Notes: generated by a model not told the origin, from the sequence alone. A DNA stretch of 32,000 nucleotides from Ureaplasma parvum serovar 3 str. ATCC 27815 (GCF_000019345.1 NC_010503.1:210001-242000), one strand, 5' to 3'; shown: positions 1-24,531, numbered from the stretch's first letter. Numbers and translations are program-made.

Positions 1-163
1 CGTTTTGAATTTTATTAATTGTTATTTTATTTGCAATCACTTCATCCTTTTTAGTTGATTCTGGTGTTGATGGGTTTTCTGGTACTGGTGTAGAGTTTTG
101 ATTAGGAACTTGTTCAAAAGTTACTGTTTGATAATTTAAATTATAATTTATATTAACTTTAAT
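1..163 (-). pseudogene. 5'-truncated copy (C-terminal module only) of the lipoprotein family represented by 417..1916; continues past the left window edge
   Basis: The minus-strand frame is open from 163 to 1: IKVNINYNLNYQTVTFEQVPNQNSTPVPENPSTPESTKKDEVIANKITINKIQN... An in-frame TAA lies at 164..166 directly upstream. There is no ATG, RBS or signal peptide. The NLNYQTVTFEQVP block is nucleotide-identical to 825..863 of the full-length gene. Confidence 0.6.
96..144. repeat. Left arm of an inverted repeat (partner 823..871)
   Basis: The reverse complement of 96..144 is ataatttaaattatcaaacagtaacttttgaacaagttcctAatcaaaa. It matches 823..871 at 48 of 49 positions, and 104..144 versus 823..863 is a perfect 41-nt match. 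It contains the 10-bp perfect palindrome AATTTAAATT at 133..142. Confidence 0.9.
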
Positions 164-164
164 T

Positions 165-184
165 TATATATATATATATATATA
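165..184. repeat. (TA)10 dinucleotide microsatellite
   Basis: Direct reading gives ten consecutive TA units. They are flanked by inverted TTAACT (153..158) and AGTTAA (190..195) hexamers. Confidence 0.97.
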
Positions 185-227
185 GAAGTAGTTAACTCCA
201 AAAATGATAAATTTATATAATATTGTT

Positions 228-256
228 TTGACAATAATTAAATAAAATTGTAAAAT
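228..256 (+). promoter_or_regulatory. Candidate sigma-70-type promoter of the lipoprotein gene (TTGACA, 17 nt, TAAAAT)
   Basis: A perfect -35 hexamer TTGACA lies at 228..233, followed by a 17-nt spacer and then TAAAAT at 251..256. It sits about 160 nt upstream of the ATG at 417. The call rests on sequence pattern only. Confidence 0.5.
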
Positions 257-262
257 AAATTA

Positions 263-292
263 GTAAATGTGCTAATGCATTTACAGTTTTTA
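263..292 (+). promoter_or_regulatory. Terminator-like stem-loop in the lipoprotein leader (orphan copy of the rpoC terminator hairpin)
   Basis: GTAAATG (263..269) pairs with CATTTAC (278..284) and is followed by AGTTTTTA. The sequence is related to the hairpin at 23928..23965 (shared GTA.ATGTGCTAA...CATTTAC.GTTTT). Confidence 0.45.
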
Positions 293-416
293 TGTGTCTT
301 AAAATAAATTATATAAATAAAATTGTTTTATGTACAATATACAATGTTCTTTTTAAATTTTTACAATTAGAATAATTTAAATAACAAAAATTAATCTATT
401 AGGAGATTATATATAA

Positions 417-1916
417 ATGAAATTATTAAAAAACAAAAAATTTTGAGCAATGTCATTAAGTGCGATTGCAATTAGTACAAGTATAGTTGCGTTCGCAGCT
501 TCTTGTTCAAATACAAATATTAAATCTAAGTTAAGCAAGCAATTAGCACAAACAAAAGATCAAAAAAACCATTTTGCTGTTTATGAAATTGAAAATTATA
601 CTAAACTAACAGATGAAGAAAAGAAGTCATTAGAAAATCTTGAGTTTGGTGTTTCTATTTTGGATAAAGATGGTAAAAATCCAATAAATATTAAAGTTAA
701 AGGAGTTCAAAAAGAAGGTAAGATTTACGTTAAATTGCCACGCAAACCAGAAGTAAATGAAAAATTACTTGTTGTACCAACTAAAAATATTTTAAAAACA
801 GAAGCATTAGTTTTAAATAATGATAATTTAAATTATCAAACAGTAACTTTTGAACAAGTTCCTGATCAAAAATTAGAACCAAAAGAAGAAAAACAAACTA
901 AAGCTGTTGATTATGAAAAAGCAATTAAAGATGAAGATTATGTAAAACAAATTACATTATCTAATTTAGAAAAATATATTAGTAATGAGTATCAATATTT
1001 AAATCCAAATAATAAAACACTAGATTATAAAAATCATAGTTTTGTTCAAAAGTTTTTAGACGAAATTGATCTTTTAGCACAAAAATTAGAAAGCAACGAC
1101 CTTAATTTAGAAGATAAACAAATTTATGAAAAAATTATTTTAGGATTACGTTGATTGCTAGCAGAAGATAATAATGAAACTAAAAATAAAGCTTTAGAAT
1201 TATTTAAAGATTACTTTACAACAATCATGAAAGCAACAAAAGTAAATGATAAAGTTCATTATGATCCAAGTTTTATTAATGAATTTTATGGTTCAATAAG
1301 CAATTTGTTTGAAGAGCATGATTTAGAGCCATCAGTGGAAATTGAATCTAATAAAATCCGTATTGTTAAAGAAGATAAAGATGTAATAAAAGACAAAACA
1401 GTTACTGCAACATTTAATTTATACAATGGCTTTGACTGATCAACATTATTAAAAGATGTTGTATTTAAAGAATATAAGAAAGATAGTAATGGTAAACCAG
1501 TAATAGATGAAAAAACAAAAATGCCAATTGAAACTGATAAAATAGTTGAAGATCCTGTAGTAATGCGTTTAGAAATTGCTGAATATCCAAAAGATTGAAA
1601 CACTAGCAAAGAAAATCCTAAAAACTTTTCATATATTAACTTTAAAAAATCAGAAGTTTTAAAATCACCAAAATTAGTGTTTACTAAGGTATTTAATTTA
1701 GATAAAGAACAAAAATATCATATTAACAATGTAATGTTCAGCCATAAATTAATTCCCAATTTATTGAAAGCATTGGATATAAAAAACAATACAACTAATG
1801 CCGAATTAATTAAAAAAATTAAAGAAAATATGACTGCTATTGATGAAAAAACACAAACAAATTTAAATACAAATTACATTCCTTTGTCACTTACAGAAAC
1901 AAATAATAAAAAATAA
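417..1916 (+). CDS. Putative surface lipoprotein, full-length family member (499 aa)
   Basis: The ATG at 417 is preceded by AGGAGA (401..406). Track ORFs 450..1154, 1155..1439 and 1677..1916 are in one frame and join through in-frame TGA codons at 444, 1152, 1437 and 1596. The N-terminus MKLLKNKKFWAMSLSAIAISTSIVAFAASC has a basic n-region, a hydrophobic core and a lipobox-like AAS-C. The stop is TAA at 1914..1916. Confidence 0.85.
823..871. repeat. Right arm of the inverted repeat (partner 96..144), inside the lipoprotein CDS
   Basis: See 96..144. Both arms are read in the same codon phase as NLNYQTVTFEQVP. The palindrome AATTTAAATT lies at 825..834. Confidence 0.9.
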
Positions 1917-1923
1917 TTAATAT

Positions 1924-1967
1924 AAAAAACTCTAGTTAGTATCTTTAAAATAACACTAGAGTTTTTT
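1924..1967. terminator. Bidirectional rho-independent terminator between convergent genes
   Basis: AAAAAACTCTAGT (1924..1936) pairs with ACTAGAGTTTTTT (1955..1967). An A-tract upstream and a T-tract downstream allow it to work on both strands. It lies between the stop at 1916 (+) and the stop at 1971 (-). Confidence 0.75.
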
Positions 1968-1970
1968 ATA

Positions 1971-4043
1971 TTAACTTAAAATTAAATTTTTCATTTTAGC
2001 TTCATCAATAAGTTTTTTAATAAAATATTCAACAGCAATCATAGCACGGACATCATTTTCGCAATAAATACGAGCGTCATGTACAAATTGTTCTCATTCT
2101 AGATCAGTAATTGTATTGAAAAAACGTTTTGTTGTTTTTGTTTGACAAACCAAACCATTACCCACACTTAGTTCTTTGTAGTTTAAACAATTAACATCGT
2201 GATAAATTTGTGGAAATTCTTTTTCAATAATTGGTAAGACTTTTTTAATTGAATAAAAACCTTTTAATTCAGGAATTACAATTAATTGCTTTCCCATTGA
2301 AACTATAAAAAAATCAGCTAAATCATACATGTTTTTAATTATTTCGCTAACCTTTAATTCATATATTTCTTCATTAATGAATTCAGCCATTTCTTTAAGA
2401 CGCGAAGCTTCAAAAGATTTGTTGTATACAATATATGAATATTCTAATCCCTGGTGAATTTTATCAATAATTGCTTTAAACCATTCATTATTAATTTCAC
2501 GTGGATCAATAATCATATTAGTGCATTTTAAATTTTTAATATCACAACTTCCATCATCAATAATAATAGAATTTTGTGTAACAGTTTGGGTAAAAGGAAA
2601 CGAATTATCAACAGCGCGAATTGCTGAATTAATTGATTCAAAATCAAAATAAACCTTTTTTGATTTCAATTTAGCAAATAAATCAACAGCAGCTTGATAG
2701 ATCTTTATTTGATTATTTTTATATAAATTAAAAAAGGTTTGATTAGCATATGTTTTTAAAATATCAATCCCTAATATATCTTTAGTAACATTATCTAAAC
2801 CAAATTTTTTAATTGTTAAAATTTTTCCACTATATTTAATAACATCATATCCGCTATATGCGTATAAATTTCTTAATTCTAATCAAAAATCATTATCCTT
2901 ATAGTCACCCTTATCATTATATGATGGTATAAAATAGTTAGGAATTCTTTGTTCGATAGGCAAAGCTAATAAATTTTGTTTATGAACTAATAATTCGCTG
3001 ATTACTTCATCAAAATCATTGTGTAATTTTTCAATGCCTTTAATTAATTCATCCATGGTTTTATTAAAACGTACATCATCTTTTAAATCTTCTGTTTTGT
3101 AATCATAAATTTTTTTGGCTTCCTTATAATCATTTATGCTACTATAGGTTCCATCGATTAAATCATCTATTAAAATACCTTTACAATGATCATAAGCATC
3201 AATATCTTCATAATATTTTTTATTTTCGTCTTTTTTTAAATAAATTGCTTCTCCACGCTTACGTTTACGTTTTAATTCATTAATTTCAAATTTATTAAAT
3301 TGATTTGCAGCACTTGGTGGTAAAGATAAAACTACGCTTTTTTGATAATTATAATAAGGAGAAATTGTAAAATTTACTTGATTTTTTTTTAATTTAACAT
3401 AATCAACAATGCACATTTGATAACTTATACATTTATTTATAAAATAAGGGTGTTTTGAGATAACTTGTGCTTGGTAAAATACATCTAAAATATGGTGTTT
3501 TTTAATTGAACTTGTCCCTTTTGTTTCGATAACAATAAATTCATCGTTCTTTTTGATAAAACAATCGGGTTTAGTAATTAATTTATCATTAATAAAAACA
3601 GGTTGAAAAAAAATGATTTTATCATTTTTATCAATTAATTCTAAAGTTAAATTAGCAAGCTCTTCTAATGATTTGTTTTTAAATAAAGGATCAGTTTCGA
3701 AATTAATAATTTTCTTAATGTAATGATAAGTTTTTTTAATATCTTCTTGTGATGCTTTATCTAATAAAATACCTTCAGCAATTTTAGGATTGTCCACATC
3801 TATATTTTTATTAATTTCTAATTGTGAAAGAAAATCAGTTTGTTCCTTATAAATTTCATATGCATCAATTTCATAATCATGTTCTTCTTCATCATCTAAA
3901 TCCTCAAAATCATAAGAACTAACATTTTTTAACAATAAGTCGATTTTAGCTTTAATCTCAGCATTAGTGAAAAACCACATTGCTTTTTGCTTTGTATAAT
4001 AACCAATGTAATCATATTTAGTAATGTATTTCCCTGTGCGCAT
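1971..4043 (-). CDS. DUF2779-type protein: N-terminal PD-(D/E)xK-like nuclease region plus C-terminal DEDDy-like exonuclease-like region (690 aa)
   Basis: Track ORFs 2883..4055 and 2094..2669 are in one frame. I translated 2670..2882 and 1971..2093 by hand and found them open, with only TGA codons at 2883 and 2094. The ATG at 4043 follows GAGG by 6 nt (the track start at 4055 is a GTG). Motifs: KPDCF...FIVIETKG...YQAQ in the N-terminal half; VYFDFES (DxE), YNKSFE and IYCENDVRAM (Y-x3-D) in the C-terminal half. The stop is TAA at 1971..1973. Confidence 0.8.
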
Positions 4044-6145: not shown

Positions 6146-6532
6146 ATGATTTACGTTTTATACAGTCCTAATTGCGCAGTGTGTAAAAAAGTTGTGCGAT
6201 TTTTCCGAAATAATCAAATTGAAATTACCAAAATTATTATTGGTGAAGATAAAATAGAACGTTCTATGTTGTTAGATATTTTATCTCTTTGTGAAGATGG
6301 CTTTGGAACAATTATATCTTTTAAGACAGAATCTTCAAAACGCTTGAATATTACTTCAAAAACTTTTTTAGATTTATCTACAAAAGAATTATTAAATTTA
6401 ATTCAAAATGATTTAAATTTAATTCGTCGCCCTTTAATCTATCAAACAAAAAACAATCGACCATATCGTTTACAAATTGGTTATGATTCAGAAGAAATTG
6501 AAATTTTTAAACGAGCAGTGCATGAAAAATAA
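6146..6532 (+). CDS. spx: Spx/ArsC-family redox-sensing regulator-like protein (128 aa)
   Basis: An N-terminal C-x-x-C (CAVC at residues 10-13) and an LIRRPLI motif are typical of Spx/ArsC-fold proteins. Confidence 0.8.
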   Translation: MIYVLYSPNCAVCKKVVRFFRNNQIEITKIIIGEDKIERSMLLDILSLCEDGFGTIISFKTESSKRLNITSKTFLDLSTKELLNLIQNDLNLIRRPLIYQTKNNRPYRLQIGYDSEEIEIFKRAVHEK

Positions 6533-24009: not shown

Positions 24010-24531
24010 ATGAAATTATTAAAAAACAAAAAAATTTGGGTATTAACAATTAGTAGTGTTTTAATTGGTGTAAGTGTTATTACATCAATTGCTTCATGCT
24101 CTAGTTCAAACATAGAATCTAAATTAAGTGATAAATTAGTTGAAGATGAAGATAATAATTATTACGTAGCATATCAAATTTCAAATTATGAAAAATTAAA
24201 AGATTTTGAAAAAAAACAATTAGAAAAAGTCACTTTTTCAACATCTATTACCCCAACTGATAAAACAAAAAACTCACAAGTTTTTAATGCAAAAGTAAAT
24301 GAAGGCATTTTATTCAATCAGCAAGCGAAAACATTTTATATCAAATTAGTTCGTAAGCCTGAAGTTGGTGAAAGTATTATTATTTTACCAAATAATTCAA
24401 TTTTAAAAACACACGGCTTTGTAGTTACAAATGAAAATTTAAATTTTATTAAAATTAATAAAAAAGGCGAATTACAAAGATCTAATACGGCAATAACTAA
24501 AAAAAATAATTTAACTAACGAATATAAATAG
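24010..24531 (+). CDS. Short lipoprotein (173 aa): N-terminal-module-only paralogue of 417..1916
   Basis: RBS AGGAG. The first 24 nt are identical to the gene at 417. The signal peptide MKLLKNKKIWVLTISSVLIGVSVITSIASC carries a lipobox. The protein is homologous along the N-module (KLVRKPEV, ILKT, NLNF blocks) and then diverges at the AATTTAAATT junction (24436..24445). It ends at a true TAG. Confidence 0.8.
   Translation: MKLLKNKKIWVLTISSVLIGVSVITSIASCSSSNIESKLSDKLVEDEDNNYYVAYQISNYEKLKDFEKKQLEKVTFSTSITPTDKTKNSQVFNAKVNEGILFNQQAKTFYIKLVRKPEVGESIIILPNNSILKTHGFVVTNENLNFIKINKKGELQRSNTAITKKNNLTNEYK

What the first reader, a model, noticed from the sequence alone, without database searches (positions are those of the whole stretch)
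96..871. Inverted 41-nt boxes bracket the promoter plus 5' coding module of a lipoprotein gene: candidate DNA-inversion switch that swaps C-terminal modules
Seen in sequence:
- 104..144 is the exact reverse complement of 823..863 (41 nt; 48/49 over 96..144 versus 823..871).
- Both copies are read in the same codon phase, as N-L-N-Y-Q-T-V-T-F-E-Q-V-P.
- Right of the box at 823..871 lie the remaining roughly 350 codons of an intact lipoprotein gene.
- Left of the box at 96..144, on the minus strand, lies a different open C-terminal coding sequence. It has no start codon, RBS or signal peptide of its own, and an in-frame TAA sits at 164..166.
- The 678 bp between the boxes (145..822) carry everything needed for expression: (TA)10, a TTGACA-17-TAAAAT promoter, the RBS, the ATG, the signal peptide with lipobox and about 135 N-terminal codons.

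Recombination between the boxes would invert 145..822. That would fuse the expression module in frame to the currently silent left-hand module and leave the present C-terminal module promoterless.

Established knowledge: a single expression module shuffled among 5'-less silent genes by site-specific inversion is how the known mycoplasma surface-antigen switches work (M. pulmonis vsa, M. bovis vsp, M. agalactiae vpma, M. penetrans mpl).

Inference: that this locus is such a switch. The protein family here does not obviously resemble those families, and no recombinase gene lies in the window.
Basis: partly seen in the sequence, partly recalled or inferred. Interest (0 to 1): 0.8.

Follow-up and report, generated by a model that had tools for sequence, protein, structure and literature searches.

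The report
Known Ureaplasma UU172 surface-antigen inversion switch

Summary

**What the window holds**
- The window is Ureaplasma parvum, read with genetic code 4.
- The 499-aa lipoprotein gene at 417..1916 is UU172, an MBA N-terminal paralogue.
- The minus-strand ORF that runs off the left edge is the UU171/144 fusion.
- The 41-nt boxes (104..144 and 823..863) are letter for letter the inverted repeat published by Zimmerman et al. (2011, 2013). Those authors showed the inversion by Southern blot, sequencing and immunoblots, with about 1-2% spontaneous switching. They also showed that the XerC recombinase (UU222) binds the repeat in vitro.

**Independent evidence from 10 public assemblies of the locus**
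- Four have the window's orientation.
- Three have 145..822 exactly inverted. One of them carries an intact in-frame 584-aa UU172N-UU171/144 fusion.
- One has lost the whole cassette through a 743-bp deletion.
- Two show nested inversions that use a third short site (ATAATTTAAAT, 372..382). These flip only the promoter-bearing spacer, or only the RBS plus 5' coding part.

These nested configurations are not among the six described in the 2011 text, and they are the only small novelty here. No recombinase gene lies in the window. Interest is low because the system is already known.

The parts
1..103 (-). Start of the currently silent C-terminal module UU171/144. It continues about 400 codons beyond the left edge of the window.
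   Evidence: Minus-strand frame is open from the box to the window edge. In L001-L010 it runs 435 codons after the box to a normal stop. It contains DYDVKLTNVKIANIALNNDNV, the published UU171/UU144 linker.
104..144 (-). Left 41-nt inverted repeat (site S1, IRUU172). Its inner 14 nt (131..144, ATAATTTAAATTAT) are a perfect palindrome.
   Evidence: Exact reverse complement of 823..863. Identical to the published 5'-ATAATTTAAATTATCAAACAGTAACTTTTGAACAAGTTCCT-3'.
145..371 (+). Promoter-bearing spacer ('irb'). It holds (TA)10 at 165..184 and TTGACA-17-TAAAAT at 228..256.
   Evidence: It inverts together with UU172N in L002, L004 and L010, and on its own in L007.
372..382 (+). Third short recombination core (site S2), ATAATTTAAAT, just upstream of the RBS.
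   Evidence: The breakpoints of the nested inversions in L007 (S1xS2) and L009 (S2xS3) fall exactly here. The predicted junction sequences match those loci exactly across the compared stretches.
401..405 (+). Ribosome-binding site AGGAG, 11 nt before the ATG.
   Evidence: Read directly from the sequence.
417..822 (+). UU172N: signal peptide, lipobox (Cys30 at 504..506) and the MBA N-terminal paralogue domain. This is the mobile 5' coding module.
   Evidence: NCBIfam NF045871 MBA_Nterm_para matches residues 3-137 at 152.7 bits against a cut-off of 55. Translation.
813..827 (+). TTAAATAATGATAAT, the 15-nt repeat that is also present in inverted orientation inside UU144 (published third inversion site).
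   Evidence: The published 51-nt sequence matches 813..863 exactly. The partner copy sits about 570 bp left of the window start in all loci. Paper text.
823..863 (+). Right 41-nt inverted repeat (site S3), codons 136-149 of UU172.
864..1916 (+). UU172C, the C-terminal module expressed in the window's configuration (350 codons plus TAA).
   Evidence: It is left without promoter, RBS or start codon in L002, L004, L009 and L010.
1917..1974 (.). Perfect 20-bp hairpin between the convergent genes UU172 and UU173 (DUF2779); probably a bidirectional terminator.
   Evidence: Inverted repeat I7, arms 1917-1936 and 1955-1974, 100% complementary.

Best explanation
The region is the UU172 phase-variable element of Ureaplasma parvum.

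A 678-bp cassette (145..822) carries the promoter region, RBS, start codon, lipoprotein signal peptide and the MBA N-terminal paralogue domain (UU172N). It is bracketed by 41-nt inverted repeats that lie in the same reading frame. Site-specific inversion between the repeats, most likely catalysed by the XerC-like tyrosine recombinase UU222 encoded elsewhere in the genome, re-joins the cassette in frame to one of two 5'-less C-terminal modules. These are UU172C on the right, giving a 499-aa product, and UU171/144 on the left, giving a 584-aa product. A cell therefore displays one or the other surface lipoprotein. The window shows the UU172-ON state.

- **Shown here:** the repeat, the reading frames, both orientations in natural isolates, and breakpoints inside the boxes.
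- **Shown in the literature:** inversion within clonal populations, alternating protein expression, about 1-2% spontaneous switching, and XerC binding to the repeat in vitro.
- **Inferred:** that XerC catalyses the inversion at this locus. Catalysis was demonstrated only for the sister mba locus, in a heterologous host.
- **Also inferred:** which promoter is the functional one.
For: - **Identity with the published element.** The published 51-nt UU172 sequence matches 813..863 exactly (paper). The published 41-nt IRUU172 equals 823..863 and the reverse complement of 104..144.
- **Organism and synteny.** The window is Ureaplasma, with the expected neighbours: DUF2779 (UU173), a HAD hydrolase, trpS, and onward to rpoB.
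- **Protein family.** The N-module is an MBA N-terminal paralogue domain.
- **Partner ORF.** The left ORF contains the UU171/144 linker peptide quoted in the paper.
- **Configurations in ten public assemblies.** L003, L005, L006 and L008 are collinear with the window. L002, L004 and L010 have 96..871 inverted at 98.7-99.6% identity. The in-frame fusions read ...NLNYQTVTFEQVPNQNSTP....
- **Experiments in the literature.** Southern blots, cloned inverted sequences, Western and colony blots, and escape under antibody pressure. XerC EMSA on the repeat, and xerC-driven inversion of the mba locus in M. pneumoniae.
Against: - No recombinase gene lies in the window, so the enzyme cannot be examined here.
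- XerC catalysis at this particular locus has not been shown directly.
- Comparisons between strains show that inversion has happened. They do not show its rate in the source strain.
- The functional promoter is unmapped, and promoter-like matches are at chance density.
Confidence: 0.96

Rival explanations
1. Fossil inverted duplication: the two boxes are remnants of an old duplication and no longer recombine.
For: Nothing specific. It is only the default reading of an inverted repeat seen in a single sequence.
Against: - Both orientations occur among nearly identical isolates, with breakpoints inside the boxes.
- The partner ORF stays open for 435 codons.
- Inversion within clonal populations has been published.
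Confidence: 0.01
2. The inversion is real but is produced by general homologous (RecA-type) recombination between the 41-nt identical repeats, not by a dedicated site-specific recombinase.
For: Forty-one identical bases could in principle support homologous exchange. The exact crossover point cannot be placed within the identical box.
Against: - The nested inversions in L007 and L009 have breakpoints at a site that shares only the 11-nt core ATAATTTAAAT. That is too short for RecA-type exchange and is typical of a recombinase core.
- The related mba repeats share the same core region.
- XerC binds the repeat in vitro, and xerC is the only one of the three recombinase genes found in all switching strains.
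Confidence: 0.05
3. Expression of UU171 and UU172 is controlled mainly by slipped-strand changes in the (TA)n tract of the spacer (Rocha and Blanchard 2002, as cited in the 2011 paper), and the inversion is secondary.
For: The tract is hypervariable between isolates, from 6 to 10 repeats.
Against: - The tract at 165..184 lies 44 nt upstream of the best -35 match, so it does not change hexamer spacing.
- The left module has no RBS or start codon and cannot be expressed without the cassette.
- Published blots show that both products always carry UU172N.
Confidence: 0.05

Closest known systems
UU172 phase-variable element of Ureaplasma parvum / U. urealyticum (Zimmerman, Rosengarten, Spergser 2011, Mol Microbiol 79:663; 2013, FEMS Microbiol Lett 340:55)
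   Same: It is this element. The repeat sequence, the genes (UU172 and UU171/144), the MBA N-terminal domain, the synteny and both major configurations A and B are all the same.
   Different: The window itself differs in nothing. Among public assemblies I additionally see spacer-only and 5'-coding-only inversions through a short site at 372..382, and a cassette deletion. These are not among the six configurations described in the 2011 text.
mba locus of Ureaplasma (UU375/UU376; Zimmerman 2009; Paralanov 2012)
   Same: Same organism and the same N-terminal protein family. A single promoter plus conserved-domain cassette is inverted onto alternative variable domains. The repeat core is related (ATTTGAATTATCAAACAG versus ATTTAAATTATCAAACAG), and XerC binds it.
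   Different: It is a different locus, about 200 genes away. Its partners are tandem-repeat domains, and its repeat is 21-25 nt rather than 41 nt.
Mycoplasma pulmonis vsa locus (HvsR recombinase, vrs boxes)
   Same: It works the same way. One expression site, comprising promoter, RBS and the 5' coding region with signal peptide, is joined in frame to 5'-less silent genes by inversion at repeats that lie inside the coding sequence.
   Different: The proteins and repeat sequences are unrelated. vsa has many silent genes, and its recombinase gene lies next to the locus. Here there are two main partners and the recombinase gene is distant.
M. bovis vsp, M. agalactiae vpma and M. penetrans mpl switches
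   Same: These are surface-lipoprotein phase variation by Xer-like tyrosine recombinases acting on short inverted repeats.
   Different: They move or flip only a promoter placed in front of complete genes. Here part of the coding sequence moves as well, so chimeric proteins result.

Membership tests
Ureaplasma UU172 phase-variable element | 41-nt inverted repeat ATAATTTAAATTATCAAACAGTAACTTTTGAACAAGTTCCT, one copy inside UU172 and one in the spacer in front of UU171 | tested here: met
   Exact matches at 823..863 (+) and 104..144 (-). Published sequence.
Ureaplasma UU172 phase-variable element | The mobile module encodes the MBA N-terminal paralogue domain with the conserved lipoprotein signal peptide | tested here: met
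   NF045871 matches residues 3-137 at 152.7 bits against a cut-off of 55. Lipobox Cys30.
Ureaplasma UU172 phase-variable element | The partner ORF is UU171/144: 5'-less, in frame after inversion, and containing the DYD linker and the LNNDN repeat | tested here: met
   The 584-aa fusion in L009 and L010 contains ...NNIDYDVKLTNVKIANIALNNDNV..., as quoted in the paper.
Ureaplasma UU172 phase-variable element | Both orientations occur | tested here: met
   Four assemblies are collinear with the window, three carry the whole-cassette inversion and two carry nested inversions.
Ureaplasma UU172 phase-variable element | High-frequency reversible switching within a clonal population | not testable with these tools
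   Known only from the literature: about 1-2% spontaneous switching and sectored colonies.
Ureaplasma UU172 phase-variable element | XerC (UU222) tyrosine recombinase present in the genome and acting on the repeat | not testable with these tools
   No recombinase gene in the window. In vitro binding is published. Catalysis at this locus has not been shown.
vsa-type expression-module shuffling (mechanistic class) | A single cassette with promoter, RBS and 5' coding region; silent partners lacking a 5' end; recombination site inside the coding sequence and in frame | tested here: met
Promoter-only invertible switch (fimS / mpl type) | The invertible segment contains only the promoter, and both flanking genes are complete | tested here: not met
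   The main invertible segment includes 135 codons, and the partners lack start codons. A spacer-only flip does exist in L007, but its effect on expression is unknown.

The most novel reading that the evidence does not exclude
The element is not a two-site, two-state switch. It is a shufflon of at least three sites.

A short core, ATAATTTAAAT at 372..382 between the promoter-bearing spacer and the RBS, recombines with either 41-nt box. The promoter spacer (145..371) and the RBS plus 5' coding part (372..822) can therefore invert independently. This gives four states, all of which are seen in public genomes: window-like, L010-like, L007 and L009.

In the two 'flipped-spacer' states the best promoter match points away from the cassette. 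A perfect TATAAT is also created 40 nt upstream of the ATG. These states could therefore be OFF states or states of altered expression level, adding an on/off or level layer on top of the antigen swap. I did not find these configurations in the text of the 2011 or 2013 papers.
Probability: 0.3. Interest if true: 0.35.

Novelty: already known. Interest (0 to 1): 0.15.

Why it matters
The switch lets a minimal-genome human urogenital pathogen alternate between two immunogenic surface lipoproteins, and so escape antibody. This was established in 2011-2013, so the finding adds no new biology.

It has two uses.
- As a positive control, it shows that the first-stage reader can recognise a real inversion switch from raw sequence.
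- It gives a small extension. Public assemblies reveal additional nested inversions, a cassette deletion, and poly-A or nonsense truncations. Together these show that natural populations sample more states of the locus than the two main ones.

Tried and rejected
- **Look-up with the code-4 translation.** I used the TGA-free ArsC-family gene at 6146..6532 as an anchor instead, with 10-kb flanks.
- **Scan of genome contigs.** I used the 18-nt degenerate core ATTTRAATTATCAAACAG. A genome-wide census of boxes was therefore not obtained.
- **Two scans of metagenome contigs.** The patterns were the S2-RBS sequence and part of the box. Both found nothing, so that collection apparently holds no matching Ureaplasma contig.
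- **Protein search with UU172N.** It returned only 6 clusters and did not list the 499-aa or 584-aa forms, so it could not be used to count configurations. Its top hit, P0001 (163 aa), led to five more loci in the inverted configuration with a GAA-to-TAA nonsense mutation.
- **Short contigs of 718-757 bp.** I first suspected they were assembly breaks at the repeats. They are ordinary low-coverage contigs, some with adapter tails, so I rejected that idea.
- **Promoter assignment by consensus scan.** The result is inconclusive, because matches are at chance density in this AT-rich DNA.
- **Literature search for the accession numbers that carry the unusual configurations.** It found nothing.

Full report
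**Observation.**
The repeat is real. 104..144 is the exact reverse complement of 823..863 (41 nt), and the match is 48/49 over 96..144 versus 823..871. The repeat finder extends it to 74-nt arms at 85%. The 36-nt core occurs exactly twice in the 32-kb window and never in 100 dinucleotide-preserving shuffles.

The window uses genetic code 4. Read that way, 417..1916 encodes a 499-aa lipoprotein. Its N-terminus is MKLLKNKKFWAMSLSAIAISTSIVAFAASC, with the lipobox Cys at residue 30, and the gene has four TGA = Trp codons. Both boxes are read in the same phase as NLNYQTVTFEQVP. The minus-strand frame is closed by TAA at 164..166 on the inner side of the left box and is open to the window edge on the outer side. 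(TA)10 lies at 165..184, TTGACA-17-TAAAAT at 228..256, and AGGAG at 401..405.

**Source and context.**
I used the TGA-free ArsC-family gene at 6146..6532 as an anchor and fetched 10 kb on each side from ten public assemblies. All ten are about 0.72-0.74-Mb Ureaplasma genomes or Ureaplasma contigs, and all show the same gene order: a large DUF1410 protein, the two lipoprotein modules, DUF2779, a HAD hydrolase, trpS, and onward to eno, pfk, pyk and rpoB.

In these loci the left ORF continues for 435 codons beyond the box to a normal stop. The two C-terminal modules are distant paralogues, with 32% identity over 132 residues (E = 8e-14).

**Identity with a published system.**
A literature search led to Zimmerman et al. 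2011 (PMC3047005). That paper gives the 51-nt sequence TTAAATAATGATAATTTAAATTATCAAACAGTAACTTTTGAACAAGTTCCT from inside UU172, encoding LNNDNLNYQTVTFEQVP. It matches 813..863 exactly. The 2013 follow-up (PMC3599477) prints the 41-nt inverted repeat, which equals 823..863 and the complement of 104..144.

The left ORF contains DYDVKLTNVKIANIALNNDNV, the published junction of UU171 and UU144. NCBIfam model NF045871 (MBA_Nterm_para) covers residues 3-137 of the protein. That is exactly the part encoded between the start codon and the right box. The finding is therefore the "UU172 phase-variable element".

**What the literature established.**
- Inversion of the UU172N/spacer segment was shown by Southern blot and by sequencing of cloned variants.
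- UU172 and UU172N-UU171/144 are expressed alternately, as shown on Western and colony blots.
- Escape variants are selected under antibody pressure.
- About 1-2% of cells switch spontaneously, and colonies are sectored.
- xerC (UU222) is the only one of three tyrosine recombinase genes present in all switching strains. Its product binds the repeats of both this element and the mba locus in vitro. xerC drove inversion of the mba locus in M. pneumoniae.
- Catalysis at the UU172 element itself is inferred, not shown.

**Independent evidence obtained here.**
A block-by-block map of the ten loci gives five configurations.

| Configuration | Loci | What is seen |
|---|---|---|
| Collinear with the window | L003, L005, L006, L008 | UU172 intact, 499 aa |
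| Whole cassette inverted | L002, L004, L010 | 96..871 inverted at 98.7-99.6% identity, breakpoints inside the boxes |
| Spacer only inverted | L007 (CP021987) | 145..371 flipped; UU172 ORF still intact |
| RBS plus 5' coding part inverted | L009 (CP041199) | 372..822 flipped; intact 584-aa fusion |
| Cassette deleted | L001 (CP021988) | window 124..866 missing |

In the inverted state the fusion is in frame (...FEQVPNQNSTPVPENP...). It is intact at 584 aa in L010 and L009. It is truncated to 476 aa in L002 by loss of one A from an A6 run, and to 236 aa in L004 by gain of one A in an A7 run. Five further contigs, reached through a 163-aa database protein, are also in the inverted state and carry a GAA-to-TAA nonsense codon. 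This matches the kinds of "size variation" mutation described in the paper.

**Beyond the published description.**
In L007 and L009 the breakpoints fall on a third site, ATAATTTAAAT at 372..382. This site shares only that 11-nt core with the palindrome ATAATTTAAATTAT at the inner end of both boxes. The predicted junction sequences match those loci exactly across the compared stretches.

The 2011 paper proposed ATTTAAATTA as a possible core and noted that it has several copies in the element. However, the six configurations accounted for in its text do not include these two. I could not see the figures, so this is a cautious statement.

The functional meaning is unknown. In L007 the best promoter match (11/12) points away from the UU172 start, and a 10/12 match points towards it. 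Promoter-like matches are at chance density throughout.

In L001 the deletion joins TCAAAAGTTA to TCAAAAATTA, an imperfect microhomology. It removes the cassette and both recombination cores, which leaves both modules silent.

**Other checks.**
No recombinase gene lies in the window. Pfam annotations of the left 16 kb and of the remaining unassigned ORFs show only housekeeping families. The (TA)n tract varies from 6 to 10 between isolates. It lies upstream of the -35 match, so a spacing effect is unlikely.

**Verdict.**
The system has been known since 2011. It works like the M. pulmonis vsa switch but belongs to the Ureaplasma MBA family. Interest is low. The nested three-site behaviour is a modest possible extension.

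Noticed in passing
window 372..382 (site S2); L007 3981..4244; L009 3953..4695: Two public genomes carry nested inversions that use a third short core, ATAATTTAAAT, just upstream of the RBS. CP021987 has only the promoter-bearing spacer (145..371) flipped. CP041199 has only the RBS plus 5' coding part (372..822) flipped. Together with the two main states, all four combinations exist in nature.
   Followed up: partly
L001 4610..4740 (equivalent to window 124..866 missing): CP021988 lacks the whole expression cassette and both recombination cores. The 743-bp deletion has a junction at the imperfect microhomology TCAAAAGTTA / TCAAAAATTA. Both C-terminal modules are left head to head and silent.
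   Followed up: partly
window 165..184 and the equivalent position in L002-L010: The (TA)n tract in the spacer ranges from 6 to 10 repeats among otherwise ~99% identical isolates.
   Followed up: partly
L002 about 2979; L004 about 3731; L131 about 4490: Expressed UU172N-UU171/144 fusions are often truncated. L002 has lost one A from an A6 run (476 aa). L004 has gained one A in an A7 run (236 aa). The P0001 contigs carry a GAA-to-TAA nonsense codon (163 aa).
   Followed up: yes
window 24010..24531 (+): A second, 173-aa MBA N-terminal paralogue lies just downstream of rpoC; from that position I take it to be the UU189 orthologue (my inference, not tested). It is 46% identical to UU172N. Homology ends at the codon position of the recombination core, where it carries a different perfect palindrome, AAAATTTAAATTTT. 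A short 27-codon tail follows. No partner box lies in the window.
   Followed up: partly
window 1917..1974: A perfect 20-bp inverted repeat with an 18-nt loop lies between the convergent genes UU172 and DUF2779. It is probably a bidirectional terminator.
   Followed up: no
L009 / L010 fusion protein, residues 190-259: The UU171 part gives a sub-threshold DUF1410 match (E = 1.5e-4, 22.5 bits against a cut-off of 25.5). This is the same family as the large neighbouring gene on the left, and hints at shared ancestry of these surface modules.
   Followed up: no
window 11044 and 19717: Two further copies of the 11-nt core ATTTAAATTAT lie inside housekeeping genes. They have none of the flanking box sequence and are probably chance matches in AT-rich DNA.
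   Followed up: no
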